Of a DNA stretch of 54,443 bases, positions 28,506 to 41,747 are shown one piece after another. The first letter of the stretch is position 1. The number at the start of each line of letters is the position of its first letter. A program made the translations under genes and the position numbers. A model generated the notes under the pieces. It saw nothing but the letters and a program-made list of their open reading frames with translations. It searched no databases and was not told the DNA's origin. Source of the DNA: a virus (lineage: Duplodnaviria; Heunggongvirae; Uroviricota; Caudoviricetes); IMG/VR virus record IMGVR_UViG_2579778982_000031; one strand, written 5' to 3'.

Positions 28506-28949
28506 ATGAATCAATATATTTATTCCCCTTCGGAAAATGCTTTTTATGCTGTTAATTTAAAAAACACTTATGAAGTAAATGGAACATGGCCTGCTGATGC
28601 ATTAGATATTCCTGATGACATTTCTGTAAAATATATGGCGGAACCGCCACAAGGGAAAATCCGAGTTGCAGGGGAAAATGGTTTTCCCACATGGGCTGAA
28701 ATACCTCCACCATCACATGAGGAACTTATTGAACAGGCCGAATCAGAGAGGCAATTATTGATTAACCAGGCCAACGAATACATGAACAGTAAACAATGGC
28801 CCGGTAAAGCCGCTATTGGTCGTCTGAAAGGCGAGGAACTGGCACAATATAATTCGTGGCTGGATTATCTGGACGCACTGGAACTGGTCGATACTTCCGG
28901 GGCGCCAGATATTGAATGGCCTACGCCTCCGGCAGTTCAGGCCAGATGA
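28506..28949 (+). CDS. Tail fibre assembly protein (Tfa)
   Basis: 147 aa after the fibre gene; conserved C-terminal PDIEWPTPP motif. Confidence 0.7.
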   Translation: MNQYIYSPSENAFYAVNLKNTYEVNGTWPADALDIPDDISVKYMAEPPQGKIRVAGENGFPTWAEIPPPSHEELIEQAESERQLLINQANEYMNSKQWPGKAAIGRLKGEELAQYNSWLDYLDALELVDTSGAPDIEWPTPPAVQAR

Positions 28950-29526
28950 CATCCGGCGCGGTGCTGGTATCTGTTGCCGTCACCGCGTCAATGTAATCCA
29001 GCACAGCGTTAAGGCGGGTTGTTTCTGCCTGCGTCAGTTTACGTCCGGCCTGTAATTTCAGCTGAATCAGACTGATGGAGGCCATTGCAGTATCAATCAG
29101 TGACTGGCGCTGTGCTTCTGCCGTGTCTACTGCGACGCTATGCTGTGCCTCAGTATCGGTCACCCATTTCTCACCATCCCATTTATCGTATGGTGTTAAC
29201 GGGGCGATAGTTGTGGTATTTTCAGGGTAATCACCCGGAGCTGTGATTTCTTTTGACTCTCCCGTTTTGGTGCTATAGACGATTTCACCGCGATGGTCTG
29301 GCACATATTCCCATGAGTTAAAATTTGCAGAACGACAGATAGCATAACCCACCTTATATGTGCCAGGAGCATCTAAACAGGAATATGCGGGGATACCGAC
29401 ACCCACAGCAAGATATTCAATTGATGCAGAAATATACTCCCGTGTCTCACTGTCATAGTTATAAACGGTAATCTCTCCTGCCTTTGTGGCAATAAATTTA
29501 TTATTTAAGATGGCGTTATACATCAT
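28921..29526 (-). CDS. Alternative tail fibre assembly protein (inverted copy)
   Basis: 201 aa on the opposite strand inside the invertible segment; ends with the Tfa-type motif PDVIWPELPEA. Confidence 0.7.
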   Translation of the reverse strand: MMYNAILNNKFIATKAGEITVYNYDSETREYISASIEYLAVGVGIPAYSCLDAPGTYKVGYAICRSANFNSWEYVPDHRGEIVYSTKTGESKEITAPGDYPENTTTIAPLTPYDKWDGEKWVTDTEAQHSVAVDTAEAQRQSLIDTAMASISLIQLKLQAGRKLTQAETTRLNAVLDYIDAVTATDTSTAPDVIWPELPEA

Positions 29527-30101
29527 GCAGCCCTCACAATGTAATTAAATGAAATATTACGTGGGCGTGTCTCTGCTGCACCGACAATACTGGTGCTCAA
29601 CCCCGTTGCCGTTCGTTTGTTATTTTTATTTCCTTCAATCAGACAGTTGTAATCATCATTACCAATTAACGAATTGGTGGCATCAATACTGTCCGGGGAC
29701 AAGGCATTAGTAGTGGAACTTAAAGTCAGCATCTCGTCTGAACTTGGAAGATTTTTTAATGGTGTTTCATTGCGTGAAATACCCGCGTAAAAAAAGGACT
29801 CATGCCTGTGAGCTTCAAAAGAGTCATCCTGAAGACTTAGCAAGGCTCGCCCCGCATCCACTCCACGTCCATCATCCCAGCCACGAATAAATTCACCGCG
29901 TAAATCAGGCAATTTATTGGTCGGGTAAGCCTTTGCCAGTTCCGGGTATTCTTCAGCAGAAAAAGCCGCACCATTGCATTTCAGCCAGCCTGTTGGCGGA
30001 GTGGCTGAAGGCCACGGAACAGGCACCCCAACCGGTAATGCAGAGCCTTCTCCCAAACCAACGTTTATGAAAATGCAGAAATAACGAGCAAATGGCATCA
30101 T
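29523..30101 (-). CDS. Alternative tail fibre C-terminal segment (silent in this orientation)
   Basis: Contains GWLKCNGAAFSAEEYPELAKAY...LPDLRGEFIRGWDDGRG, typical of Mu S/P2 H-type receptor-binding C-termini; 5' end crosses the right crossover repeat. Confidence 0.65.
   Translation of the reverse strand: MMPFARYFCIFINVGLGEGSALPVGVPVPWPSATPPTGWLKCNGAAFSAEEYPELAKAYPTNKLPDLRGEFIRGWDDGRGVDAGRALLSLQDDSFEAHRHESFFYAGISRNETPLKNLPSSDEMLTLSSTTNALSPDSIDATNSLIGNDDYNCLIEGNKNNKRTATGLSTSIVGAAETRPRNISFNYIVRAA
30046..30064. repeat. Right crossover site of the invertible tail-fibre segment
   Basis: Reverse complement of the 28150-28168 repeat (≥15 bp identical), just upstream of the invertase gene. Confidence 0.6.
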
Positions 30102-30127
30102 TCCTGCTTTTGTCAGGGAGATCTACC

Positions 30128-30682
30128 ATGCTTATTGGCTATGTACGTGTGTCAACAAATGACCAGAACACAGATCTACAACGTAATGCGCTGAACTGTG
30201 CAGGATGCGAGCTGATTTTTGAAGACAAGGTAAGCGGTACAAAGTCCGAAAGGCCGGGACTGAAAAAACTGCTCAGGACATTATCGGCAGGTGACACTCT
30301 GGTTGTCTGGAAGCTGGATCGGCTGGGACGTAGTATGCGGCATCTGGTCATTCTGGTTGAGGAGTTGCGCGAACGTGGCGTTAATTTTCGCAGCCTGACG
30401 GATGCTATTGATACCAGCACACCGATGGGGCGTTTTTTCTTTCATGTGATGGGTGCCCTGGCTGAAATGGAACGAGAACTGATTGTTGAACGAACAAAAG
30501 CTGGACTGGAAGCTGCTCGCGCACAGGGACGAATTGGTGGACGTCGTCCCAAACTTACACCAGAACAATGGGCGCAGGCCGGGCGATTAATTGCATCAGG
30601 CGTTCCTCGCCAGAAGGTGGCTATTATCTATGATGTTGGTGTGTCAACTTTGTATAAGAGGTTTCCAGCCAGGGTTATATAA
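30128..30682 (+). CDS. pin: Serine DNA invertase (Pin/Gin/Hin family)
   Basis: MLIGYVRVSTNDQNTDLQRNAL...VVWKLDRLGRSM...; catalytic Ser in the VRVST motif and C-terminal HTH; close from memory to e14 Pin. Confidence 0.9.
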   Translation: MLIGYVRVSTNDQNTDLQRNALNCAGCELIFEDKVSGTKSERPGLKKLLRTLSAGDTLVVWKLDRLGRSMRHLVILVEELRERGVNFRSLTDAIDTSTPMGRFFFHVMGALAEMERELIVERTKAGLEAARAQGRIGGRRPKLTPEQWAQAGRLIASGVPRQKVAIIYDVGVSTLYKRFPARVI

Positions 30683-31024
30683 AACCGCAGACATGTCGTA
30701 TGCAGGAGGTGTCGCGGTTGGCTGGTGAACTTTTGATAGTGCGAGTATTGAATGATTTCCAGCCGTTACTGATTTTACGCATTTTTGTATGAGAGGGTTT
30801 GCACCTCCTTCCACCGATTCTCCATGACTTTACGCCACTGTCTCTAGAACTGCTATGTGCCAACAGCAGACATTCATAGCACACAGTTTTGTTAACAACT
30901 AGAAATAAGTTTAGGAATAGTCGCGATATATCTATTAAAGATACAATCATTCAAATAAATGAGACATTTTCGGCATGCTGGGAAAAGTAATTAAAAATGG
31001 TGAAAGCCAATTATTTTTTATTAA

Positions 31025-31531
31025 TCAACTTTTAAACCATAAGTCATCTCGATAGAGTAGACTAATTTTCGTTGCATCTTTTGATGCTAGAGTCGTACAC
31101 TCTCCTTTATCAAACTCATCTAGACTCACAAATGTAAATTCGTCACCATTTTTTTCTTTCGGAAACACCATAAAGACTACTTCGAAAGTACAATCACTAT
31201 ACACATTTTTTAAGAATTGCTGAAGTGCTCTATACTTTCCTATTTCACAATCAGTAAGTGTAAAGGAGGTACACCCATCTGTTGAGTGATACTTCGCATC
31301 TAAAAGAATATAAGAGGATTCGTCAGCGTCAATAATGAAATCGGGGCGTTTCCCCCCATATGATTTCAAGTTTGCAGATAAAGTATTTATTCCTTGCTCA
31401 ACATGTTCAAATTTCCACTTGGATTTTTCCAGCCATCTACTAGCATATTTCTCACCATCTTGACCAGCCGTTATAGAGTATTGTTTTCTTAATGCGCTGC
31501 ACATTTCGTCTAAATTTAACATAAATTCCAT
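31025..31531 (-). CDS. Hypothetical protein with PD-(D/E)xK nuclease-like motif
   Basis: AT-rich ORF; putative motif ...E...RPDFIIDADESSYILLDAKY (PD...D-A-K spacing). ATG chosen at MEFML. Motif assignment is by eye only. Confidence 0.4.
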   Translation of the reverse strand: MEFMLNLDEMCSALRKQYSITAGQDGEKYASRWLEKSKWKFEHVEQGINTLSANLKSYGGKRPDFIIDADESSYILLDAKYHSTDGCTSFTLTDCEIGKYRALQQFLKNVYSDCTFEVVFMVFPKEKNGDEFTFVSLDEFDKGECTTLASKDATKISLLYRDDLWFKS

Positions 31532-31799
31532 GTTCCTTTTTTTTAGTATAATTATTAACATCGGCAGTATTTAATAATTCTTTAAAAATAAATTTTCAGG
31601 CTCATACCAATTATATCTTCAAGCATTATTATCAAGCATATTCGAGACCTCTGCAATTCGCTCACAGCGGATCTCGCCTAGCGAGCAGGTCTGCTCAGTG
31701 CCATAATTAGTCTCATCAGCAGACTATAGTTGTGCTCAATCGGAGACATGTGGCAAACATGAGGAACATTATGTCCGTCAAAGAGTTTTCGTAGCTTAG

Positions 31800-32015
31800 G
31801 CATTTCGATGCTGGCAACGGGTCAGTGTAACGCTTACTATATCGGTCCACTTTAGTCTTAAGGGTTCAATATGGCGTTGCACCTATTGTCCGCTGACCAA
31901 GAATCTTCGGGTGATTCAACTTCTGTTGGGTCATAAGAAACTGGAAAGCACATTCCGTTATCTGGGCATTGAAGTCGATGATGCGTTAGAGATCTCTGAA
32001 TCGATTGAAGTCTAA
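31800..32015 (+). pseudogene. Tyrosine-recombinase (lambda Int-like) C-terminal remnant
   Basis: Frame ending at TAA 32013-32015 encodes ...VIQLLLGHKKLESTFRYLGIEVDD..., matching the LLGHK-x6-RY catalytic-Tyr box of lambda-type integrases; in-frame stop at 31797 and no N-terminal domain. Confidence 0.35.
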
Positions 32016-32121
32016 GGTTGTCAGGGCTGCAACAGCAGCCCTGTGCCAGGAGCAGACGTTAACGACCAAGCATTGGCGGCAATTGAGCTCAGCGCAATTG
32101 CCGTTCAAGTGCAACTCCGTT

Positions 32122-34875
32122 CTATTTGATTGCTGCATTGATTCGTTTATATCTTTGGGTAAAGGCCTCTTTGCCACCTTCCATCACTCGGCATATCTCA
32201 TCGCGTATGGAAGGTTCTTGAAGACCCCCTTGCGCCACAATTCTGGTTTGACCAGACCGAATATCAAGGGCAATGACGTTTTCCGCGTCACCATTCACGA
32301 CGATGTTAGCGTTGTGCGTGACTACTAAAACCTGCCGTTTTTGTTTGATCTCACGCAATTGCGTCACGATAAGATCATAGATTAAGTGGTTATCAAGATC
32401 ATCCTCAGGCTGATCAAGTATAAGAGGCTCATTGCCATATGAAAGGATAAATGCAAGGAGAGCCGCCGTTTTTTGCCCCGGAGATCCTTGCTCTACGGGT
32501 TTGAAACTCTCGCCGTTCTTGAGGCTATATCTGATATCCAGAGAATCGCCTGGAAACCAGCACTGAATTCGATCTATCTGTTCCGGAGTTAGCCCCTGAA
32601 TGAGGGATACAAAACGTCGATCTTTGCAGGATTCCACCGCCATAGTATCGTTTTCATGGATTGCAAGTAGCGATGATTTTATTTTCTCAATTTTATCATC
32701 CATAGTATTGGATTGGTCTTGCGTTAAATAAGCCAGCAAGCCCTCATCCCCGTCAACAACTCCAATGTCGCGGTCAAATCCGCCACCACTGCGGCCGATC
32801 AGGTTACGGAATTCTTCCTCAACCGTAATCTTGTTTCCAAACGGAATGACATTGATCTGTACATATGAATTGCCGACGAGAGTATCCTTGAGAAAGTCCT
32901 CACGAAGTTTGGTTATCAATGCTCGATGCTCATGGAGTTTGACCAAGTATTCTTCCGCGCTCTTCTGATGCTGCGCAAGAGTTTCTCTCTTTTTGTCGAA
33001 TCCCTTGAGCTTATCTTCGAAATCTTGTCGCTGCTTAACCAGAACACCATATGCAGATGGATCACCTGCGTCTGCTGCGCTGAGTTGACCGAGGAGGGCG
33101 TTGTATTCATGGCTCGCCGCTGTAATTCTTTTCGATATTCCCAAGTCTGATCGAGTTTGATTCCATGAGTTCTTCACATCATCAATCCGCTGCGCGATCG
33201 AGTTCATCTCTGTCTGAAGCTTCTCAAACGTCGCACGGATGTCCTTGATGGTATCGAAGAGTTCTTTGTCATCCGCATTCCCAATGTCGAAATATTGTAA
33301 ATCCAATTCTGCTGGCAGTAGGCTTCCAGAAATATCTCGGACCTGTTCGGCGGAATCCTCCCAAGTCGTTACCCAGGAGTCCATAGCCTTACTCTGGTTC
33401 TGTCTGAGTTGGTAAGCCTTAAGGACATCCGCGTGGCCCGCCTTTTCAAAAACATCGAGTTTGCGTTTGACGTCTTCAAGCTGACCTTTGGTTACCGATT
33501 CTTCCTGAAGCCCAGCCTGAACTTCACGCTCTTGGGCGCGAAGCGAGAGATATTTGGAAACCAGTTCATCCCACTTAAGCTGCCAATCACGATGATTGAC
33601 CTCCGGGGCATCATCGACAACCTGCAAGAGTGCTTGGGGATGCTTTGCCAATTCGAATATCTGTTTCTGGCTGTAAATCCTGACAGGAAATCGTTGTGCT
33701 ATGTCTCCCTCGGAATCACACCAGACTCCGGGAGCGGTCTCTTCCTCGATGCTGTATATGTCGTCGGTATTAGACCAGGTGATTCGGAAACGGCCACCGT
33801 CTTTTCGAAAGCCTACAGTTATTTTCGTGGAATCTTTTAACAGCCCTTCATCTTGGCGGTCTTTCGAAGTTTGACTGTATTTGGTAAATTCCTTTTCAAG
33901 GCTCTTGGGGATTTCTCCCTTTCGTTTAAGAGCAATCCGCAGGAATTCCAACGAAGTCGATTTCCCAGTGCCTCGTCCACCAATGATAGTGTTGAGCCAG
34001 GGGTTCAGTTGACAAGTTAAAGATTGCCCTCGTCCTAAGTACTTCGCATCATCAACCACGATACTTTCGATGGCAAGTTGTCCATGGATATTTGGGTCAC
34101 CAGTGAAGTTGTCCGACCGCTTCAGTGAAAGAGCCCCATCAACGAGCGCCAGCCGTAATCCGTCATAAGATGGCTCCGACATTTTTACCCAAGTGAAATG
34201 GCTACCCGGGTAGCGTTGATTTCCGGTACCGGACGGATGATGGGAATCGGTTCCAAGAATCTCTGCCCAATTCAAATTCTTGCCAATATAGAGCTGCGGT
34301 TTTGCTTTAGCAAGGTCCGTTACCTCCATAGCAAAAACACATTTGTTGTCAAGCACCTGCTCTAGTGTGTTGCCCGTACAGACCGTAAAAAGTCCGCTAG
34401 CCTGATCTACATGAGCAGGTATTGCAAGTCCTCCTGACCTAGCAATTTCGTCGATCACCTCAACTGCTGAGCATTCAGAGCAGCCGTCGCTCTTTCCTTT
34501 GGTGCCGCGATACCTGACCGCACCAAGCAGTGAGTCGATATCAGAGGTTGTCTTGTCTTCGCCGAAAATGGCCAGAATATGGATATTCCCCTGAACAGTA
34601 AGCTCAACACCTGGGAATAAGTAGAGTGGTCGATAATCTTCATGACTCTCAGATGCCAGTTCCTTGAGTGCCTGCTTGAGCGGATCAATCCAAGCGCCTG
34701 AATTATGGTCCGTGACAGCGACACAATCGATGCCTTGTCGCATGTAGTTGAGCAGCCAATCTTTATGAGTGATCTGCATATACTGGGCCTGATTAGGGCC
34801 TTTTCCATAATCGTCCGATGCCGGAGTGTGATTATGGAAGTCGAATTTCCACCACCGAGAACCAATCCAGTTCAT
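32122..34875 (-). CDS. PHP-domain phosphoesterase fused to SMC/ABC-like ATPase (Ppl-like candidate anti-phage protein)
   Basis: N-terminal PHP motifs (FDFHNHTPASDDYG, AVTDHNS, IPAHVD); Walker A GGRGTGKSTSLEFL; long coiled-coil region; Walker B/D-loop LILDQPEDDLD and H-loop VVTHNANIV. 917 aa. Confidence 0.6.
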   Translation of the reverse strand: MNWIGSRWWKFDFHNHTPASDDYGKGPNQAQYMQITHKDWLLNYMRQGIDCVAVTDHNSGAWIDPLKQALKELASESHEDYRPLYLFPGVELTVQGNIHILAIFGEDKTTSDIDSLLGAVRYRGTKGKSDGCSECSAVEVIDEIARSGGLAIPAHVDQASGLFTVCTGNTLEQVLDNKCVFAMEVTDLAKAKPQLYIGKNLNWAEILGTDSHHPSGTGNQRYPGSHFTWVKMSEPSYDGLRLALVDGALSLKRSDNFTGDPNIHGQLAIESIVVDDAKYLGRGQSLTCQLNPWLNTIIGGRGTGKSTSLEFLRIALKRKGEIPKSLEKEFTKYSQTSKDRQDEGLLKDSTKITVGFRKDGGRFRITWSNTDDIYSIEEETAPGVWCDSEGDIAQRFPVRIYSQKQIFELAKHPQALLQVVDDAPEVNHRDWQLKWDELVSKYLSLRAQEREVQAGLQEESVTKGQLEDVKRKLDVFEKAGHADVLKAYQLRQNQSKAMDSWVTTWEDSAEQVRDISGSLLPAELDLQYFDIGNADDKELFDTIKDIRATFEKLQTEMNSIAQRIDDVKNSWNQTRSDLGISKRITAASHEYNALLGQLSAADAGDPSAYGVLVKQRQDFEDKLKGFDKKRETLAQHQKSAEEYLVKLHEHRALITKLREDFLKDTLVGNSYVQINVIPFGNKITVEEEFRNLIGRSGGGFDRDIGVVDGDEGLLAYLTQDQSNTMDDKIEKIKSSLLAIHENDTMAVESCKDRRFVSLIQGLTPEQIDRIQCWFPGDSLDIRYSLKNGESFKPVEQGSPGQKTAALLAFILSYGNEPLILDQPEDDLDNHLIYDLIVTQLREIKQKRQVLVVTHNANIVVNGDAENVIALDIRSGQTRIVAQGGLQEPSIRDEICRVMEGGKEAFTQRYKRINAAIK

Positions 34876-35237
34876 TTGTACCGTTCCTATTCTTTTTATT
34901 AGTGCGTCTGCGCGAGGTCGCTAACTTTGCAAACTAGATTACCTTGTAAGGTTGGAAAGTCCAACGTCCGCTGTTCGTCATAGCAGACATTCACTACAGT
35001 TATGGCAGAAAGGTATGCATGTTGAGGTGGGAAAGTCGTGAAAGAAAAGAAAACTGCTGCGCTGTTTGTCGTCACGTTTATCTTCATTGGCTATGCAAGT
35101 CATAATACAAGGTGGGACAAAACTGAGACACATAAGGCCTCACAATGGCTTGCAAGGCTTTACATGTTTTGATGTGGTGGGACGTGTGAGCGCAGTGTTG
35201 ATGGGGTAATGCTTTGAATTAGAAGCGGATTCTTATA

Positions 35238-35283
35238 ATTCGTAATGCGAAGGTCGTAGGTTCGACTCCTATTATCGGCACCA
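35238..35283 (+). tRNA. 3' fragment of tRNA-Thr(CGU) (thrW-like), candidate att site; not an intact tRNA
   Basis: ATTCGTAATGCGAAGGTCGTAGGTTCGACTCCTATTATCGGCACCA matches the anticodon-loop-to-CCA half of enterobacterial tRNA-Thr(CGU) as recalled; the 5' half is absent upstream. Confidence 0.6.
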
Positions 35284-35300
35284 TTCAAACATCTCCCCAA

Positions 35301-35385
35301 GTCTACTAAAGTCTTTCAAAACCCCTTATAATCCGCGTATTAAAGCCCCGTTCGTCTTTTGACGTCTACTAAAGTCCCTCAAAAT
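35301..35385. repeat. Two ~22-bp direct repeats between the att fragment and the integrase gene
   Basis: GTCTACTAAAGTCTTTCAAAAC (35301-35322) and GTCTACTAAAGTCCCTCAAAAT (35364-35385), 20 of 22 identical; candidate integrase arm-type sites or operator repeats. Confidence 0.4.
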
Positions 35386-35448
35386 CTACGGTCAGATGGG
35401 GGTACTTATGGGGGTATTTGCTGTTCGGTTTAGTGGAGGTACCCCCAA

Positions 35449-36663
35449 GTGAAACTCAATGCCCGTCAAATAGACACAGCCAAGCCAAAAGAGAAGGCTT
35501 ACAAGCTGACCGATGGTGGCGGTTTGTATCTCTTGGTAAAACCTAATGGAGGTAAATACTGGCGACTTAAATATCGTGTAGCTGGTAAAGAGAAGCTATT
35601 GGCACTAGGTGTGTATCCTGAGGTTACTCTAGCCGATGCTCGGGCAAAACGTGAAGATGCGAAAAGAGGTATCGCTGGTGGTATCGATCCGATGGAAGCG
35701 AAACGAGAGGAAAAGATTGCCCGGGAAACGCAGTTAAACAACACCTTCAAAGATATTGCCCTTGAGTGGCACAGCAGCAAATTAAAAAAATGGTCTGATG
35801 GTTATGCTTCAGACATCCTCGAAGCCTTCAACAAAGATGTGTTCCCTTACATTGGCAAAAAACCCATCGCCGAAATCAAACCACTTGAACTTCTGAATGT
35901 GCTGCGTCGCATCGAGGGGCGCGGTGCTACAGAAAAAGCCAAAAAAGTGAGGCAACGGTGCGGGGAAGTTTTCCGCTATGCAATAGTCACTGGTCGCGCA
36001 GAGTATAACCCTGCACCAGACCTTACTAGCGCGATGCAAGGCCATGAATCTAATCATTACCCTTTCCTTACAGCCAAAGAATTACCTGATTTTTTCAAGG
36101 CATTGTCCAGTTACTCAGGAAGCGCATTGGTTGTTATGGCGGCTCGTCTACTGATTATCACCGGCTTGCGGACTGGCGAACTACGTGGCGCATTATGGGA
36201 TGAAATTGATTTCAACAAGGCTATCTGGGAGATACCCGCTTCACGTATGAAAATGCGGCGGCCTCATATTGTGCCATTGTCTGAGCAGGCTCTTTCGCTT
36301 ATTGGGAAGATTAGAGAAATAACAGGCAATTACCCTCTTATGTTTCCCGGGCGCAATGATCCAAGGAAAACAATGAGCGAGGCCAGCATAAACCAAGTGT
36401 TTAAGCGCATTGGCTACGCTGGACGTGTAACTGGTCATGGGTTCCGGCACACTATGAGTACGATTTTGCATGAGCAGGGCTATAACACCGCGTGGATAGA
36501 AACGCAGCTCGCTCACGTTGATAAGAACTCAATTCGTGGCACATACAACCATGCGCAATATCTGGATGGAAGGCGGGAGATGCTTCAATGGTATGCCGAC
36601 TATATGGATTCTCTCGAGCATGGCGGAAATGTGGTGCATATGGTGTTTGAAAAACACGCATGA
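35449..36663 (+). CDS. int: Tyrosine integrase, P4-like
   Basis: N-terminal DUF4102-type arm-binding region (LTDGGGLYLLVKPNGGKYWRLKYR); catalytic box GHGFRHT...; next to a tRNA 3' fragment; GTG start after GGAGGT. Confidence 0.85.
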   Translation: MKLNARQIDTAKPKEKAYKLTDGGGLYLLVKPNGGKYWRLKYRVAGKEKLLALGVYPEVTLADARAKREDAKRGIAGGIDPMEAKREEKIARETQLNNTFKDIALEWHSSKLKKWSDGYASDILEAFNKDVFPYIGKKPIAEIKPLELLNVLRRIEGRGATEKAKKVRQRCGEVFRYAIVTGRAEYNPAPDLTSAMQGHESNHYPFLTAKELPDFFKALSSYSGSALVVMAARLLIITGLRTGELRGALWDEIDFNKAIWEIPASRMKMRRPHIVPLSEQALSLIGKIREITGNYPLMFPGRNDPRKTMSEASINQVFKRIGYAGRVTGHGFRHTMSTILHEQGYNTAWIETQLAHVDKNSIRGTYNHAQYLDGRREMLQWYADYMDSLEHGGNVVHMVFEKHA

Positions 36664-37054
36664 AACAACTGGACAAGTATACAGAGGTTTACTAAAGTAT
36701 AGGGGAGTAGATTGATAAAAACTCACAGAGGATTGCTATTTAACAGTTAGCCCTGGAGAAGGGCAATCGCTCTTTTATAAACGAAGGTGTATTGAGCCTT
36801 CTACGTCGCTGACAAAGCGGAATGTTCTTTAAAACTACTGGATGTCACGCCTAATAGCGTGATCCTGCCGAAATGCAGGGTAGCTCTACCCTTGTGGAGC
36901 AAACAAACCAAAACAATCTGACTATCTTTTATAAAAGACCGCAATATGTTTTTCATATTGTGGTCTTTGGCGTATTCGACATTTGACGCAAATAAAACTC
37001 TCGCCATTCGTTGCAGGAGGGGGTTATTGCGTCATTAGTACAGGATATTAATAA

Positions 37055-37258
37055 ATGGCTAATTACAATTCATTAATTCGTCTCTCTGAAGTTCAAAGGC
37101 GAACTGGTTATAGCAAAGCATGGATTTATCGTCTTATTAGTCAGGGGAGGTTCCCTAAACAGGTAAAAATTGGAAGTCGGGCAATTGCTTTTGTTGAGTC
37201 TGAAATAGATGAATGGATTGAGAAGTGTATATTAGAATCTAGAGACGAGGTGGCCTGA
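37055..37258 (+). CDS. alpA: AlpA-family transcriptional regulator / excisionase-like
   Basis: 67 aa; LSEVQRRTGYSKAWIYRLISQGRFPKQVKIGSRAIAFVESEIDEWI is a typical AlpA/Vis HTH. Confidence 0.75.
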   Translation: MANYNSLIRLSEVQRRTGYSKAWIYRLISQGRFPKQVKIGSRAIAFVESEIDEWIEKCILESRDEVA

Positions 37259-37689
37259 TGGAAAAGAAAAACCGCCCATTACAGGCGGCTAATTCAGATA
37301 TTCGTGTATCTGATGTTACGCCCCTTACAAAATCCCTTCAAGCACCAAAGCGTACACCGAAAAAGCATCGTGCCAGAGTCTATATGCTGCGTACTGGTAT
37401 AGAGGGATGGACAGAAAATGACATTCTTCGCTACTGCCGTCTGTCTTCTGGTCGTAACTATGCAACAGAGTTAGAACGCCAGCTTGGAATCACTCTGGAG
37501 CGTATCGACGAAAAGAATCCTGATGGTATCGGAACACACCTTCGCTACCGTTTCTCCTGCCGTGGTGATGTTCTGAAAGTGATCACTCATATTAACCATC
37601 TTGCGAACATAAATGATCACAACGGACTTTCTCAGCAGGAAATTGCCGACATTCTGAAACTCTACCCGGACGCGTTTAACGCCGCCTAA
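37258..37689 (+). CDS. Hypothetical protein
   Basis: 143-aa ORF, ATGA-coupled to alpA. Confidence 0.4.
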   Translation: MEKKNRPLQAANSDIRVSDVTPLTKSLQAPKRTPKKHRARVYMLRTGIEGWTENDILRYCRLSSGRNYATELERQLGITLERIDEKNPDGIGTHLRYRFSCRGDVLKVITHINHLANINDHNGLSQQEIADILKLYPDAFNAA

Positions 37690-37701
37690 CGGAGACTGAA
37701 A

Positions 37702-38535
37702 ATGAACATCGAAAAAAGCAGATTAATTTCTGAGGCTGCCCCTCATCTGAACGCCTCTCTGGGCACAATTAACGGTAATGAATTTGCCGCAATTGTCCCG
37801 GTTATTCCTGGTCATATCGGTGGGCGTGAAACCAATATTGTTAGCGCAAAAGCGTTACACAAAGCGTTGGGCGTGGGAAAAGACTTCTCTACATGGATCA
37901 CTGATCGCATCTCTGAATATGACTTCACCATTGGGCACGATTACTCAGTCCATAAAACAATTTCCCCAAATTTGGGGAAAAGCCCGAATGGCGCGGCTTA
38001 CAGCAAGATTAAGCAGTCTGGCAGACCCGGCAAAGACTATCTGTTAAGTGTCGGAATGGCGAAAGAACTGGCAATGATCGAACGCAATGATCAGGGTCGC
38101 GCTATCCGTCGTTATTTCATCCAGTGCGAGGAAGAATTACAGCGTAGCGTGCCTGAAATCGCCGCCCGCTATCGTCGCCAGCTAAAAGCCCGTATTAGTG
38201 CCGCAAACAACTTTAAGCCAATGTGCGATGCGCTGAATATGGCCCGTGCCGAGCAGGGGAAAACGACGCAGCAACACCACTACACAAACGAGAGCAATAT
38301 GATTTCTCGTATCGTTCTTGGTGGGCTAACTGCTAAGCAGTGGGCGCGGATAAATGGCTATTCTGGCGAACCTCGCGACCATATGAACGCAGAACAGCTT
38401 GAGCACCTCTCATATCTCGAAAGCACCAATATCACGTTAATTGATATGGGCATGGAATATGAGCAGCGCAAAGGAGAACTCACCCGCCTGTCGCAACGCT
38501 GGCTCGCCAAGCGTCTGGAGGCGGTCCATGTTTAA
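37702..38535 (+). CDS. Phage antirepressor-like protein (AntA/KilAC-like)
   Basis: N-terminal region resembles AntA-type antirepressor domains (NGNEFAAIVPVIPGHIGG...VSAKALHKALGV); assignment tentative. Confidence 0.45.
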   Translation: MNIEKSRLISEAAPHLNASLGTINGNEFAAIVPVIPGHIGGRETNIVSAKALHKALGVGKDFSTWITDRISEYDFTIGHDYSVHKTISPNLGKSPNGAAYSKIKQSGRPGKDYLLSVGMAKELAMIERNDQGRAIRRYFIQCEEELQRSVPEIAARYRRQLKARISAANNFKPMCDALNMARAEQGKTTQQHHYTNESNMISRIVLGGLTAKQWARINGYSGEPRDHMNAEQLEHLSYLESTNITLIDMGMEYEQRKGELTRLSQRWLAKRLEAVHV

Positions 38536-38703
38536 GCCGACAGGAACACCACAACCCCAAAAACGCTACAAAGATGCCCACGGAGCACTCGTTACTGTCG
38601 AAAGCGTGTCTCACAACCGAGTGACGTTTTATCGCGACGGGTATCAATCGCCATGCGTACAACTGCTGGCGCGCTTCATGAAGGAGTTCGCGGAGGTTAA
38701 CAA

Positions 38704-39771
38704 ATGCTAACCGTCCAGAAGAAGATATTTTCACTGGCTGGTATGTCGCCAAAATCCAGCAATATGACAGCAAAGTCTGGCATTAATACAGCATATACAA
38801 GCAAAGTTTATCATTTTCTGGTGGTAGGAGCGGATGCCTTAACTATGTCAGAAATTACGGTCGATGGTGTTAGCGTTGAGAAGGTCGGCGGCTGCGCCAG
38901 AGAATTTCTGGTCGTAGATGGCTTTCTCTGCTCGCGTAGTGACTCCACAAAAACCTTCGTCCACACGCGCGACGTTAACGAAATGAGCGCGATGTATTGT
39001 GCATCTGGTGCTTCCAATAGTGAGTTTTCGGAGTCCATAAAAAAGAGCTTGCCGTTATGCGGCAACACGGTTTATGGTTATAAGGCACCTCATAAAACGG
39101 GTGCCGGGATTGGCGTCCTGAAAATTCTGAAGGCGACATATGACGCGCCGAGCGTCTTTTTTTATGTCGTAGGTCTGACTCACCCATTTTTTGGGCGTTG
39201 GTGTATAATCCAGCGCCTTTGTCAATCAATGGTGGCTCAGGCGGGGGCTTCTTCGGAAGCGCCGGTATCCTTCAGAGCCGGTTACGCCAACCCTGTCTGG
39301 GCTACCACCAGCGAAATTGGCGTTTCCGGTGGTAGCGTAACCTGCTATCTGAAGGAGGCTGCCACATGCTGGCTACTACCCCTACCCAAAAACCGCAATT
39401 TATCTGGATTATCGCCGCAGTTCGCCGCGATTGCCCGACAATTACCGCCAAAATTCATCATATTGCTGCCGAGTCTGAACGCGATGCTCGCCGTTCTCTG
39501 GTGCGCGATCACGTCTGCTTTTTTGCTGGTCGTATCCGCATGGAGGTGGCACATGATTAAAACCTACGATGTGCATATGGATCCCCTCGAACGCACAAGC
39601 CAGATCATCACACTGACAGAAGTGATTAACGACATTCTGGTGAGCAACTCTCCCTCACGAGACGAAAGACTGAAGGCGTTACTCGCGATATTGGATCTCG
39701 CCGTTCGTGACGTTCATTTCCTGCTGGAAGGTGGCGAAATGCCAGGAAAAACGGGGGCAACCAATGAATAA
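38704..39771 (+). CDS. Hypothetical protein; gene structure ambiguous
   Basis: 355-aa ORF whose middle looks non-protein-like; a 64-aa ORF (39366-39560, RBS AGGAGG) in another frame and a 72-aa in-frame C-terminal ORF from 39553 (RBS GGAGGT) may be the real genes. Confidence 0.3.
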
Positions 39772-39958
39772 CTCAATTAATGCCCCTCGACTTACGTCCG
39801 CACTTCAATTAATCGAGCAAGCAGCGGCTGTCCTGGTTGCTGTCAGTCTTTCGGCTGAAGAAATGGACGCTGCTGATGTCGTGGATGCGATTAAAGCGTG
39901 CTCATCTTTGGTTAACGATGCCCGTGCAGAGCTGGTAATTCTTGGGGGTGAAAAATGA
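39764..39958 (+). CDS. Hypothetical small protein
   Basis: 64-aa ORF from an internal ATG; part of a run of coupled small genes. Confidence 0.35.
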   Translation: MNNSINAPRLTSALQLIEQAAAVLVAVSLSAEEMDAADVVDAIKACSSLVNDARAELVILGGEK

Positions 39959-40218
39959 ATATCAACTTAATTTATCGTCATCCGTGTGAGCTGGAAATTG
40001 AATCATTGCTGGGGCGTGAAGAGCCATATCCAGACACATTCACTCCCGCAGATTGCGCGACTGAACGGCTTACCAGAGCGCGCACAGGTCTGGTTCATGT
40101 GATGAATGAGATTATTCCCTCGGTGGGAGGGGAACAGGCGACAGTAATCAATAGCTGGCTACAAAAAGTTACCTCCCTGATAGATATCAGTTTAATCGAT
40201 GTGGAGAGTGCGAAATGA
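39955..40218 (+). CDS. Hypothetical small protein
   Basis: 87-aa ORF, ATGA-coupled. Confidence 0.4.
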   Translation: MNINLIYRHPCELEIESLLGREEPYPDTFTPADCATERLTRARTGLVHVMNEIIPSVGGEQATVINSWLQKVTSLIDISLIDVESAK

Positions 40219-40436
40219 CCAACATCCAGCTCATTGAAGCGCAATGTCGCATCGAACAGGTTCAGACTGTTTTAGGGTTCTGGCTTGAAGGGGCCAGCCC
40301 CAGCAACAGAGACAAGTTAATGATTGGCGCGGTTATGTCACTGCTCAATGGCGTACCAGAAGCTATTCAGGAAGCAGACGAATTGTTGGGCAAATATGAG
40401 TTACAGAATCATTCAGGCGAGGCGAAACATGAATAA
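40215..40436 (+). CDS. Hypothetical small protein
   Basis: 73-aa ORF, ATGA-coupled. Confidence 0.4.
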   Translation: MTNIQLIEAQCRIEQVQTVLGFWLEGASPSNRDKLMIGAVMSLLNGVPEAIQEADELLGKYELQNHSGEAKHE

Positions 40437-41031
40437 TTTCTTAACCTTCCATGCAGAAGCAACGCCTGACGGCGTAAACATCATGTACCGCAGCAACGAT
40501 GGCATGACAGAACGCGTTGAGGCCGTTTCATATATTGATGCCGTAAATCGTCTGGATGCCGGGGATTATGACGATAAACCAGATGAAGGTATGTCAATAC
40601 ATCTTGCTATTGCCGATGGCGGCAACCAGGGATATTTCGATTACACATCACAGCATAACGTCATTATGTGGAGATGGCTGATCGCAACAGTATTCATGCT
40701 GGAAATGAGAGAGGAAAACGGCACTGTCAGCATCATTGATGATACTGGCAATCCTTCCGAAGTGGCTGTTTATTCCAACGGCATCGTCGCCATGCCGCTG
40801 TATCCAGTAGCAGAGCGCCTCGCTATGGCAAACAACATTGAGGGCGCGATGATAGAACGTTTTGGCATCGAGTCTGGCACAGAACGCGCCATCATTTTCT
40901 ACAGAGCCATGATGGATGTGGAACAAGGAGCACTGACTCCATTTGGTCGTGAAACGCTTGCTGAACTTCACAACAGCTTTATAGCTGAACTGAATGAAAA
41001 CGGCATGCCAGCGGAACCAGTGACGCACTGA
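40429..41031 (+). CDS. Hypothetical protein
   Basis: 200 aa from the ATG at 40429, overlapping the previous stop. Confidence 0.45.
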   Translation: MNNFLTFHAEATPDGVNIMYRSNDGMTERVEAVSYIDAVNRLDAGDYDDKPDEGMSIHLAIADGGNQGYFDYTSQHNVIMWRWLIATVFMLEMREENGTVSIIDDTGNPSEVAVYSNGIVAMPLYPVAERLAMANNIEGAMIERFGIESGTERAIIFYRAMMDVEQGALTPFGRETLAELHNSFIAELNENGMPAEPVTH

Positions 41032-41041
41032 GGATGGAGCC

Positions 41042-41383
41042 ATGATTACTAAAAATTTCCGACTGAATGCGCTGGCAAATAAGTATGCGTCGGCACTGTA
41101 TAACCACATTACCTCCACCAGCGGCGGGGACTATTTCATGGTTCATGCGGACGACAAGGCCGTACGTGTGGAAATCGTCAATGGAGTAAAAGGCGTTCGC
41201 AGCCTGATCGATAGCTACACACTGGCTGCCATGAAAGTGTTCTACCCGCAGTGGGAAACCGTGGGGATCGAGCTTCTTGATCGTTGCGTCACTAAGGACG
41301 GATTGACTGACGTCGGGCGTGAGATATGGCAAAGCATGGTTAATGACATGGGCGCAACTGTAGCGGGAGGTTCTCATGCGTGA
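41042..41383 (+). CDS. Hypothetical protein
   Basis: 113-aa ORF in the small-gene operon before the primase. Confidence 0.45.
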   Translation: MITKNFRLNALANKYASALYNHITSTSGGDYFMVHADDKAVRVEIVNGVKGVRSLIDSYTLAAMKVFYPQWETVGIELLDRCVTKDGLTDVGREIWQSMVNDMGATVAGGSHA

Positions 41384-41747
41384 AAATGCAGAAATGGCGC
41401 TTAGCTCCGCAATCGGAGAGCAGGTGGCAAAGATTGCTGGTGCTGTGTGGATTCATAACCTTCATTCTACTGGTGAAGAGAAAATGGCAATTCAGACGCC
41501 AGAGGGACGCACCATTACTACATCTCTGAAGCCGTCAGATGTTTGTGATCTGATTTGCGCATTCATGTACCCAGCAATGAGGACTGTCCACGGCGATAAG
41601 TGGAAACTTGCGACAACCGCTGAATTTGATATGTGGCTAAACAATGATGGCATGCTGACTGATTACGGAATAACCAAGTGGCAGATGCTGGTTAGCCATA
41701 TCGCAAACGCTATAGACCACGTGGGGTACGGTGATGCGAAACATTGA
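41376..41747 (+). CDS. Hypothetical protein
   Basis: 123-aa ORF overlapping the primase start. Confidence 0.45.
   Translation: MRENAEMALSSAIGEQVAKIAGAVWIHNLHSTGEEKMAIQTPEGRTITTSLKPSDVCDLICAFMYPAMRTVHGDKWKLATTAEFDMWLNNDGMLTDYGITKWQMLVSHIANAIDHVGYGDAKH

What the first reader, a model, noticed from the sequence alone, without database searches (positions are those of the whole stretch)
31800..32015. Lambda-type integrase C-terminal remnant between the two candidate defence genes
A ~70-codon frame ending at 32015 encodes the LLGHK...RY catalytic-tyrosine box of a lambda-Int-like recombinase but nothing upstream of it. It is a relic of an earlier integration or deletion event and marks this locus as a recombination hotspot.
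Basis: seen in the sequence. Interest (0 to 1): 0.45.

Follow-up and report, generated by a model that had tools for sequence, protein, structure and literature searches.

The report
Dead small integrase between swappable modules
The fragment is the dead tail end of a small recombinase gene lying at the joint between two swappable cargo modules at the end of an E. coli prophage, and its intact relatives point to a possible site-specific mechanism by which phages trade defence genes.

Summary
Only window 31896-32015 (39 codons plus the stop codon) derives from an integrase: 38 of 39 residues match, and the DNA is 97.6% identical over 164 bp, including 44 nt beyond the stop. The first 32 codons of the open frame are unrelated.

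The parent gene is not lambda-type. It is a 200-aa tyrosine recombinase with a catalytic domain only, present in 872 of 5426 complete E. coli genomes as a discrete module of about 700 bp.

That module is bounded by two 24-bp palindrome-like sites, which I call A and B. The same sites, singly or as A-B pairs, separate cargo modules in prophages, islands and plasmids. They coincide with breakpoints of sequence similarity between loci.

The window reads: B (30848), 178-aa gene, A-B pair (31649-31712), 183 nt, integrase remnant with its B site (32034-32057), the known defence gene Ppl/TrlF, then A (34966-34988).

Related strains carry Avs2, SMODS+SLATT or GIY-YIG+AraC at the same position. The Ppl module recurs on a plasmid, with its ends inside the B and A sites.

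The remnant itself is an inactive relic of a deletion. The wider cassette-exchange reading is inferred and was not tested experimentally.

The parts
30848..30871 (+). B-like site AACTGCTAT-GTGCCA-ACAGCAGAC; left boundary of the variable cargo region downstream of pinE
   Evidence: Pattern scan (0.1 expected per shuffled window). Similarity to related prophages ends inside it: L094 at 30858, L093 at 30870.
31025..31561 (-). Cargo gene 1: 178-aa ORF (RefSeq aa), function unknown. It has a D...LLDAKY motif that resembles a PD-(D/E)xK nuclease motif; that reading is my own and was not tested.
   Evidence: ORF list. Pfam gives only a weak RmuC hit (E=0.01). No PADLOC or NCBIfam hit. The stretch occurs in only 13 complete E. 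coli genomes, plus relatives at about 75% identity.
31649..31712 (+). A-B pair. The A-like site is CTCTGCAAT-TCGCTC-ACAGCGGAT (31649-31672). Sixteen nt further on lies a degenerate B-like site GTCTGCTCA-GTGCCA-TAATTAGTC (31689-31712).
   Evidence: Pattern scan and direct reading. Spacing and order match the A-B pairs seen in 21 related loci.
31713..31895 (.). 183 nt of unknown origin. It is probably the stump of a lost module and marks the left side of the deletion that removed the 5' 80% of the integrase gene.
   Evidence: No similarity to the integrase in any frame. Found only in the 13 genomes that share this locus.
31896..32015 (+). 3' remnant of the small tyrosine recombinase gene: residues 162-200 of 200 plus the stop codon. 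It keeps LLGH and RY but lacks Arg-I, Lys and His-II/Arg-II. RefSeq calls a 34-aa GTG-started ORF here (31911-32015).
   Evidence: annotation.
32016..32059 (+). The gene's own 3' flank. It holds a 9-bp hairpin CAGGGCTGC-aaca-GCAGCCCTG (32022-32043) that overlaps the module's right-end site B' AGCAGCCCT-GTGCCA-GGAGCAGAC (32034-32057). Similarity to all intact loci stops at 32059-32063.
32122..34875 (-). Cargo gene 2: Ppl/TrlF, a PHP-domain plus ABC/SMC-like ATPase, a known single-gene anti-phage system.
   Evidence: NCBIfam TrlF_fam_ATP 651 bits (cut-off 350). PADLOC Ppl E=2.3e-157. The module 32042-34977 recurs at 91.7% on plasmid pPE131_1.
34966..34988 (+). A-like site GTCCGCTGT-TCGTC-ATAGCAGAC, with a spacer one nt short; right boundary of the variable cargo region.
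   Evidence: Direct reading. Three independent similarity breakpoints fall inside it: pPE131_1 ends at 34977, L094 starts at 34972, L166 starts at 34975.
35238..35290 (+). Context: 3' fragment of tRNA-Thr, which is the attR of the resident prophage. It shows that the remnant lies about 3.2 kb inside the prophage end.

Best explanation
Window 31896-32015 is the last 39 codons of a 200-aa tyrosine recombinase gene that has a catalytic domain only. It is still joined to that gene's native 3' flank (32016-32059), which carries the right-end repeat B'. A deletion with its left end in unrelated DNA at 31895/31896 removed the promoter, the left-end repeat A' and the first 161 codons. Those codons held four of the six catalytic residues, so the gene is dead and the 34-aa ORF called here is an annotation by-product.

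In intact relatives the gene sits between an A site and a B site. Each site has 9-bp inverted arms around a 6-nt spacer, TCGCTC in A and GTGCCA in B. The A-int-B element, or its int-less form of about 66 bp (an A-B pair), separates cargo modules. All elements face the same way, giving arrays of the form B | module | A-(int)-B | module | A.

The window holds such an array at the cargo end of a prophage integrated at thrW: B, the 178-aa gene, an A-B pair, a stump, the integrase remnant with B', Ppl, then A.

Shown here: the homology, the site grammar, and the match between sites and similarity breakpoints. Inferred: the small integrase recombines like-with-like sites (A with A, B with B). A module flanked by two incompatible sites could then be swapped between phages, islands and plasmids without excising or inverting, much as in recombinase-mediated cassette exchange. 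In this locus the enzyme is lost, so the array is a fossil that could be remodelled only by an enzyme supplied in trans or by homologous recombination.
For: Remnant: (38/39 aa; 97.6% over 164 bp; sharp ends at 31896 and 32059).

Parent gene: 200 aa, PF00589 E=7e-18 over residues 35-184 only. It occurs in 872 of 5426 E. coli genomes, with similarity ending at the same two points in most listed hits, and its flanks are unrelated between loci.

Sites: both module ends carry the shared motif GTCCGCT...AGCGGAC, and 24-bp terminal inverted repeats are conserved in Pseudomonas relatives. The scan gave 161 A/B hits in 21 enterobacterial loci against 0.2 in shuffles. After dropping the weaker opposite-strand echo that each palindromic site produces, nearly all share the integrase's orientation. 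In 68 non-enterobacterial loci there were 25 near-exact hits against 1.0 expected.

Breakpoints at sites: the lambdoid hotspot is bounded by B on the left in L002 and L007 and by A on the right in L002, L004 and L007; the L009/L010 shared block runs from B to B'; one module is 99.2% identical from B to A in an island (L005) and a prophage (L007); the Ppl module of the window equals plasmid pPE131_1 from the B spacer to the A spacer.

Hotspot: Avs2, SMODS+SLATT or GIY-YIG+AraC occupy the same position in other strains, with breaks at 30858/30870 and at 34972/34975.

Decay is common: a second 3' relic in L002, an internally deleted copy in L093, internal stops in L004 and L005, and many partial copies in viral contigs.

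In ACN002, which has the identical locus, the remnant is the best match to the gene in the chromosome record (H156).
Against: No experiment and no read-level data show that this integrase acts on A or B sites. No excised circles or exchange intermediates were looked for.

BLAST breakpoints are fuzzy by about 10 nt because the sites resemble each other. Some breaks are not at a site: L166's left break is at 30704, and L093's right side has no A site.

The window's own sites are degenerate (5-7 mismatches, one with a 5-nt spacer). They would not be convincing without the comparative breakpoints.

Module genes lie on either strand, unlike integron cassettes.

The inner arms of A' and B' in the integrase module are poorly conserved.

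The origin of 31713-31895 is unknown, so a single deletion is the simplest reading but is not proven.
Confidence: 0.8

Rival explanations
1. The A-int-B unit is a selfish mini-element and the roughly 66-bp A-B pairs are its non-autonomous (MITE-like) derivatives. The 'modules' are then simply whatever DNA lies between successive insertions, and cargo shuffling is a by-product of ordinary homologous recombination between these dispersed repeats. The remnant would be a decayed copy of such an element.
For: Terminal inverted repeats flank a single recombinase gene. Int-less pairs keep both ends. Remnants of either end are scattered through hotspots. Repeats of 24-66 bp could support Red-type or RecA recombination.
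Against: Copy number is not IS-like: the median is 1 per genome and the maximum 3, and copies in different contexts differ by 3-10%. Identical modules in different contexts end inside the sites on both sides, which is what site-specific exchange predicts. Nearly all elements in an array share one orientation. No empty target site was found or searched for.
Confidence: 0.2
2. One reading: the fragment is what is left of a lambda-type phage integrase from an earlier prophage or island that integrated or excised here.
For: The LLGHK...RY motif is shared with many phage integrases. The locus is at a prophage end, near a tRNA-Thr att site with tandem elements.
Against: The closest relatives (97.6% DNA identity) are 200-aa proteins without arm-binding or core-binding domains. 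They sit inside hotspots, not at element ends next to att sites. The prophage's own integrase and the satellite's 404-aa integrase are both intact elsewhere. Similarity includes the small gene's specific 3' flank.
Confidence: 0.04
3. The intact A-int-B unit is an invertible switch, like the Hin segment or fimS, that turns flanking cargo genes on and off. The remnant would be a broken switch.
For: Inverted repeats flank the recombinase gene. In several E. coli loci the flanking genes point away from it. The protein's size and weak NCBIfam hits resemble FimB/E-type invertases.
Against: A query built as the inverted junction found no record with at least 80% cover, although 316 records matched at 99% identity or more, most of them presumably this same context. 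In contrast, the Pin tail-fibre segment of this same prophage appears in different arrangements among 8 genomes. The A and B spacers differ at 2 of 6 positions. In wider sampling cargo genes lie on either strand.
Confidence: 0.03

Closest known systems
Uncharacterised 200-aa 'site-specific integrase' family (e.g. RefSeq WP_024178309.1, WP_001305361.1)
   Same: The remnant is 38/39 identical to residues 162-200, and its 3' flank is the same DNA.
   Different: The window copy lacks residues 1-161 and the 5' site. No function is recorded for the family in the sources searched: names are generic and no solved structure has detectable sequence similarity.
Integrons (IntI with attI/attC cassette arrays) and integrase-less attC clusters (CALINs)
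   Same: A tyrosine recombinase is associated with an oriented array of short palindromic sites separating small accessory and defence cargo. Arrays that have lost the enzyme are common. Cargo mixes defence genes with GNAT, NUDIX and similar genes.
   Different: The enzyme is 200 aa and scores far below the only NCBIfam model whose description includes integron integrase (54 bits against 220). The sites are 9-6-9 duplex-type palindromes, not attC with RYYYAAC/GTTRRRY. The integrase gene lies inside a junction element, not at one end. Modules carry their own orientation and often two or three genes.
pdif modules of Acinetobacter plasmids (modules flanked by oppositely oriented XerC/D sites) - from my own knowledge and the review PMC9771954 listed, which I did not read
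   Same: Discrete modules are bounded by pairs of short recombinase sites in opposite orientation and are found in many contexts.
   Different: Here a dedicated small recombinase gene is embedded in the junction. The sites are unrelated to dif. The protein scores 47 bits against a cut-off of 335 for XerC.
Inverted repeats flanking fun(Z) in P2-like phages (Nilsson, Karlsson and Haggard-Ljungquist, Mol Biol Evol 2004, as summarised in PMC8987985)
   Same: This is probably the same sites. P2 has an A-like site to the right of fun(Z). A P2-like phage has B, cargo, then A' plus the first codons of the integrase between gpG and gpFI. That paper proposed site-specific exchange with enterobacterial genomes.
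   Different: I could not read the 2004 paper. I therefore cannot say whether it identified the small integrase, the A/B distinction or the arrays outside P2.
Lambda Int and other arm-type phage integrases
   Same: Same superfamily (PF00589) and the same C-terminal His/Tyr motifs.
   Different: There is no arm-binding or core-binding domain, the size is about half, and the gene is not located next to att.

Membership tests
Tyrosine recombinase superfamily (Pfam PF00589) | Significant match to the catalytic-domain profile | tested here: met
   Parent protein: E=7.4e-18, 65 bits against a cut-off of 27. Remnant alone: E=0.12, not significant, but it is 38/39 identical to the parent.
Tyrosine recombinase superfamily (Pfam PF00589) | Complete catalytic set Arg-Lys-His-Arg-His/Trp-Tyr in the window copy | tested here: not met
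   The window retains only LLGH and RY. KLRGCDL, QQKTG and HSMRRT of the parent lie in the deleted part. The assignment of these motifs to catalytic roles is by inspection.
Lambda-type (arm-binding) phage integrases | N-terminal arm-type DNA-binding domain plus core-binding domain; about 350-400 aa | tested here: not met
   The parent is 200 aa and its only Pfam hit is the catalytic domain, residues 35-184. No arm-type integrase model appears among the NCBIfam hits.
Lambda-type (arm-binding) phage integrases | Gene placed at the end of the element next to its att site | tested here: not met
   Intact copies sit inside hotspots, between replication genes and hok, or inside islands. The prophage's own integrase is next to tRNA-Thr.
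Integron integrase (IntI) | Reaches a family-specific model; about 320 aa with the IntI-specific insertion | tested here: not met
   The best related NCBIfam model (XerA / integron integrase) scores 53.9 bits against a cut-off of 220. The length is 200 aa.
Integron integrase (IntI) | attC-type sites (inverse core RYYYAAC and core GTTRRRY) at cassette ends | tested here: not met
   The sites found are GTCCGCTyy-N6-rrAGCGGAC. No attC-specific search was run.
FimB/FimE-type or Hin-like invertible switch | Both orientations of the segment occur in populations or genomes | tested here: not met
   The inverted-junction query found no record with at least 80% cover among 316 records matching at 99% or more. 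The Pin segment serves as a positive control for the approach.
FimB/FimE-type or Hin-like invertible switch | Reaches the FimB/FimE family model | tested here: not met
   24.4 and 16.7 bits against cut-offs of 222 and 221.
XerC/XerD | Reaches the Xer equivalog models | tested here: not met
   XerC 47.5 bits against 335; XerD 29 bits against 330.
Proposed A/B-site module array (small integrase system) | Module bounded by a B-type site on one side and an A-type site on the other, in the array's orientation | tested here: met
   Window: B 30848, A 31649, b 31689, B' 32034, A 34966, all on the + strand. The same grammar holds in 21 loci.
Proposed A/B-site module array (small integrase system) | Integrase-dependent recombination at A/B sites | not testable with these tools
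   This needs in vivo or in vitro recombination assays.
Ppl/TrlF anti-phage protein (neighbouring cargo) | Reaches the family model over its full length | tested here: met
   NF045780 651 bits against a cut-off of 350, residues 5-912. The NCBIfam Ppl_antiphage equivalog scores 631 bits, below its cut-off of 1000. PADLOC Ppl E=2.3e-157.

The most novel reading that the evidence does not exclude
The remnant is a fossil of a widespread, essentially uncharacterised cassette-exchange system. A 200-aa tyrosine recombinase is embedded between two heterospecific, oppositely oriented 24-bp sites (A and B). The same site pair flanks cargo modules in P2-like and lambdoid prophages, genomic islands and plasmids across Gamma- and Betaproteobacteria. 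It would act as a natural recombinase-mediated cassette exchange that lets phages swap defence genes at fixed hotspots without disturbing the backbone.
Probability: 0.4. Interest if true: 0.8.

Novelty: new variant of a known kind. Interest (0 to 1): 0.5.

Why it matters
How defence genes move between the fixed hotspots of temperate phages, satellites and islands is an open question. Rousset et al. 2022 could only speculate about cos-end and homologous recombination. Later work on swapping documents the pattern, and my term searches in it found no mention of a small recombinase or of flanking repeats.

This relic led to a candidate enzyme and candidate sites that are precise enough to test directly. 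It also offers a sequence signature (A/B sites) for delimiting cargo modules, including ones with unknown genes such as the 178-aa gene here.

For the window itself the consequence is modest. The 34-aa 'hypothetical protein' or 'integrase' call is a pseudogene fragment, and the two flanking genes are separate modules rather than one two-gene system.

Tried and rejected
- Upstream integrase traces: searching all frames of 31400-32200 with the intact protein found nothing beyond residues 162-200.
- Invertible-switch idea: rejected with the inverted-junction query, which found no record with at least 80% cover.
- Ancestral locus with an intact integrase joined to Ppl: an exact-pattern scan of one genome per species for the B'-Ppl junction found nothing. 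All 8 contexts shown for the exact Ppl protein have the same truncated arrangement. The only other context, plasmid pPE131_1, has an int-less A-B pair instead.
- Origin of 31562-31895: a distant blastn search found it only in the 13 genomes that share the locus.
- Solved structures: no sequence relative in the PDB.
- Nilsson et al. 2004: not held in the library.
- Literature searches for a description of a small tyrosine recombinase with defence cassettes: nothing relevant. This is absence in the searched library only.
- RNAalifold on the 5' leaders of 18 diverse integrase genes: no consensus structure. I therefore do not claim a conserved Shine-Dalgarno-sequestering hairpin across the family.
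- Mapping of the window onto APEC O78: this holds only up to about 35.4 kb. Beyond that the window carries a P4-like satellite that O78 lacks.

Full report
**1. The observation**

It is open from 31800, just after a TAG at 31797-31799, to the TAA at 32013-32015, and it ends ...TKNLRVIQLLLGHKKLESTFRYLGIEVDDALEISESIEV.

A megablast of 31560-32125 against 5426 complete E. coli genomes gave two classes of hit. Thirteen genomes hold the whole stretch. About 760 others match only 31896-32059/63, at 90-97.6% identity, always under a gene annotated 'site-specific integrase'.

The best intact relative (L002:7518-8120) encodes 200 aa. With that protein, tblastn matches the window only at residues 162-200. 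The match is 38/39 identities, E=2e-22 locally and 1e-18 against the whole window.

A pairwise DNA alignment shows both ends of the similarity to be abrupt. It starts at ACCAAGAATC (31896) and ends after GGAGCAGACGT (32059), 44 nt past the stop codon.

So the relic is real and far beyond chance. However, only 39 of the roughly 70 codons are integrase, and the Pfam profile alone would not have shown it (E=0.12).

**2. What the parent gene is**

- The parent protein has a single Pfam hit, the catalytic domain, over residues 35-184 (E=7e-18).
- Its NCBIfam hits are Xer-type and FimB/E-type models, all far below their cut-offs. No arm-type phage integrase model is among them.
- It is therefore a small recombinase with a catalytic domain only, not a lambda-type integrase.
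- The family is very large and strongly conserved. At least 8000 90%-identity clusters scored E<1e-10, with 78-97% identity across Escherichia, Proteus, Providencia, Pantoea and Idiomarina. Copies of 60-66% identity occur in Pseudomonas and many Betaproteobacteria, and more than 547 species genomes hold one. It occurs in at least 68 viral contigs, many as fragments.
- No solved structure has detectable sequence similarity.

**3. The gene is a discrete module with variable flanks**

In E. coli the gene is present in 872 of 5426 genomes, with a median of one copy. In most listed hits the similarity stops at the same two points: about 60 nt upstream of the ATG and 44-45 nt after the stop.

Outside those points the DNA is unrelated from locus to locus. 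Neighbouring genes include:
- an SDR with a regulator, and two unknown genes (L002);
- a 756-aa unknown and a LA2681-type HEPN protein (L004);
- an Mrr-like nuclease (L005);
- dynamin-family proteins, a CBS protein and an ETEC_3214 protein (L008-L010).

Several loci are in lambdoid prophages, between the replication genes and hok. Others are in islands.

P2-like phages carry an 80-bp 5' relic of the module in the known hotspot between gpG and gpFI. L002 has a second, degenerate 3' relic between two cargo genes.

**4. The sites**

Reading the module ends showed terminal inverted repeats. These are conserved through the family. Pseudomonas copies have GTCCGCTTCTGGCCGGTTAGCGAC on the left and its reverse complement on the right.

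In enterobacteria the ends resolve into two 24-bp sites with 9-bp inverted arms and a 6-nt spacer:
- A = GTCCGCTyy-TCGCTC-AnAGCGGAC
- B = GTCCGCTyy-GTGCCA-rrAGCGGAC

B is essentially an inverted A with two spacer differences.

Further copies lie in the flanks, either singly or as A-B pairs of about 66 bp without a gene. A scan of 21 enterobacterial loci found 161 hits against 0.2 in shuffles. Each palindromic site also gives a weaker hit on the opposite strand; once those echoes are set aside, nearly all sites face the same way as the integrase. They form arrays of the type (A-B) | module | (A-int-B) | module | (A-B).

In 68 non-enterobacterial loci a 13-mer from the site gave 25 near-exact hits against 1.0 expected.

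Modules are 0.6-5 kb, with one to several genes on either strand. Their content is mixed:
- defence-related: SIR2-HerA, PD-T7-1, PD-T7-5, AriA-like proteins, HEC-08, a Lit-like U49 peptidase and Ppl;
- other: GNAT, SDR, NUDIX, MFS, LysR and ArsB.

**5. Sites coincide with exchange points**

All-against-all comparison of the loci shows similarity blocks starting or ending within 0-8 nt of a site.
- The lambdoid hotspot is bounded by B on the left in L002 and L007 and by A on the right in L002, L004 and L007.
- L009 and L010 share exactly B...int...B' and then diverge.
- One module is 99.2% identical from B to A in an island (L005) and a prophage (L007).
- The Ppl module of the window (32042-34977) equals plasmid pPE131_1 at 91.7%. 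It runs from the last base of B's left arm into the A spacer, and the plasmid copy is preceded by an A-B pair rather than by an integrase.

**6. The window**

The prophage is integrated at thrW. Its own 372-aa integrase lies next to the intact tRNA-Thr, outside the window. The attR tRNA fragment is at 35238-35290, and ARAGORN finds no full tRNA in the window.

Between pinE (30092-30682) and attR the window reads:
- a B-like site at 30848-30871;
- the 178-aa gene at 31025-31561 on the minus strand;
- an A-B pair at 31649-31712;
- 183 nt of unknown origin;
- the integrase remnant at 31896-32015;
- B' at 32034-32057;
- Ppl/TrlF at 32122-34875 on the minus strand;
- an A-like site at 34966-34988.

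The window's sites are degenerate. What gives them weight is that independently defined breakpoints fall in them:
- A related prophage with Avs2 (L094) matches the window up to 30858 and again from 34972.
- One with SMODS+SLATT (L093) matches up to 30870. It also carries another decayed copy of the integrase, this one internally deleted.
- Strain E8 (L166, GIY-YIG+AraC) resumes at 34975 with 99.8% identity over 7 kb.

No complete genome in the collection covers more than 64% of window 30000-42000. The missing third is the cargo region.

The hotspot reading is therefore well supported. The two 'candidate defence genes' are two separate modules, not a pair.

**7. How the relic arose and what it does**

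The right end of the similarity is the native module end. The left end is arbitrary: it falls inside codon 162's neighbourhood, with unrelated DNA beyond it. The simplest history is a deletion running from inside a former module, across A', into the integrase gene.

The copy lacks Arg-I, Lys and His-II/Arg-II, so it cannot be catalytic. RefSeq nevertheless calls a 34-aa protein here, and in one genome calls it 'integrase'.

In ACN002, which has the identical locus, the relic is the best match to the gene in the chromosome record. Such arrays are therefore orphaned, as integrase-less attC clusters are.

**8. Mechanism proposed for the intact system (inferred)**

Two sites with palindromic arms but different spacers, in opposite orientation, flank each module. 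That geometry disfavours deletion and inversion between A and B. It still allows A x A and B x B exchange with another DNA molecule carrying the same pair, which is cassette exchange.

The data fit this. Backbones keep the outer arm, and modules bring the inner arm and spacer-proximal sequence.

I tested and rejected an invertible-switch model. A query built as the inverted junction found no record with at least 80% cover, although 316 records matched at 99% identity or more, most of them presumably this same context. In contrast, the Pin segment next door is polymorphic among eight genomes.

A selfish mini-element with MITE-like derivatives, acting through homologous recombination, remains a live rival.

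**9. What is known**

A 2022 review states that fun(Z) of P2 is flanked by inverted repeats enabling site-specific exchange with bacterial genomes, citing Nilsson et al. 2004. P2 indeed has an A-like site to the right of fun(Z). I could not read that paper.

Recent work on P2/P4 hotspots and on recombinases as defence markers does not mention this small integrase or these sites in the passages I searched. Four further literature searches found nothing relevant.

The relic itself is ordinary. The system it belongs to is at most partly described.

**10. Verdict**

- Interest is moderate for the relic itself and high for the lead it gives.

Noticed in passing
window 35449-36663 (+) and downstream to at least 42000: An intact 404-aa P4-type integrase lies directly after the tRNA-Thr attR fragment. 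By similarity to strain E8 it is followed by P4-like satellite genes (ash, antA, TOPRIM/DUF927 primase). A satellite therefore sits in tandem with the prophage at thrW. APEC O78, otherwise identical around the finding, lacks it.
   Followed up: partly
window about 28900-30700 (tail-fibre and assembly genes plus pinE 30092-30682): The Pin-invertible tail-fibre segment appears in different arrangements in otherwise identical loci from eight genomes (order and strand of the Collar, Caudo_TAP and Gp53-like genes differ). Inversion here is therefore active or recently active.
   Followed up: partly
window 31025-31561 (-); L012:5992-6489: The 178-aa cargo protein has no family assignment apart from a weak RmuC hit. 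Its D...LLDAKY motif resembles a PD-(D/E)xK nuclease motif. A relative at about 75% DNA identity sits beside an AAA ATPase plus an HNH endonuclease next to intE near icd, and is itself flanked by A-like sites.
   Followed up: partly
L002:9426-9715; L093:10163-10437; L006:5001-5080: Other relics of the same small integrase occur elsewhere: a 3' relic between two cargo genes in a Qin-like prophage, an internally deleted copy at the same thrW-prophage hotspot in strain EC2, and an 80-bp 5' relic in the gpG-gpFI hotspot of P2-like phages.
   Followed up: yes
L013:5956-6006 and equivalent 5' leaders of intact copies (not in the window): In enterobacterial copies a perfect 15-bp inverted repeat (CATACTCAAATCTCC-N9-GGAGATTTGAGTATG) covers the Shine-Dalgarno sequence and the start codon. 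Pseudomonas copies have GTCCTCC-N7-GGAGGAC. RNAalifold on 18 diverse leaders gave no consensus structure, so conservation across the family is not established.
   Followed up: partly
window 34963-35293: The stretch from the A-like site to the tRNA-Thr fragment is present at 93-95% identity in thousands of E. coli genomes, often twice per genome, and is unannotated. The A site marks its left edge.
   Followed up: no
window 31911-32015: RefSeq annotates the GTG-started 34-aa ORF inside the relic as 'hypothetical protein' (WP_015364432.1), and in one genome as 'integrase'. It should be treated as a pseudogene fragment.
   Followed up: yes
L014:9794-10504; L022:3899-4580: Some arrays in other Enterobacterales hold two copies of the small integrase module a few kb apart.
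   Followed up: no
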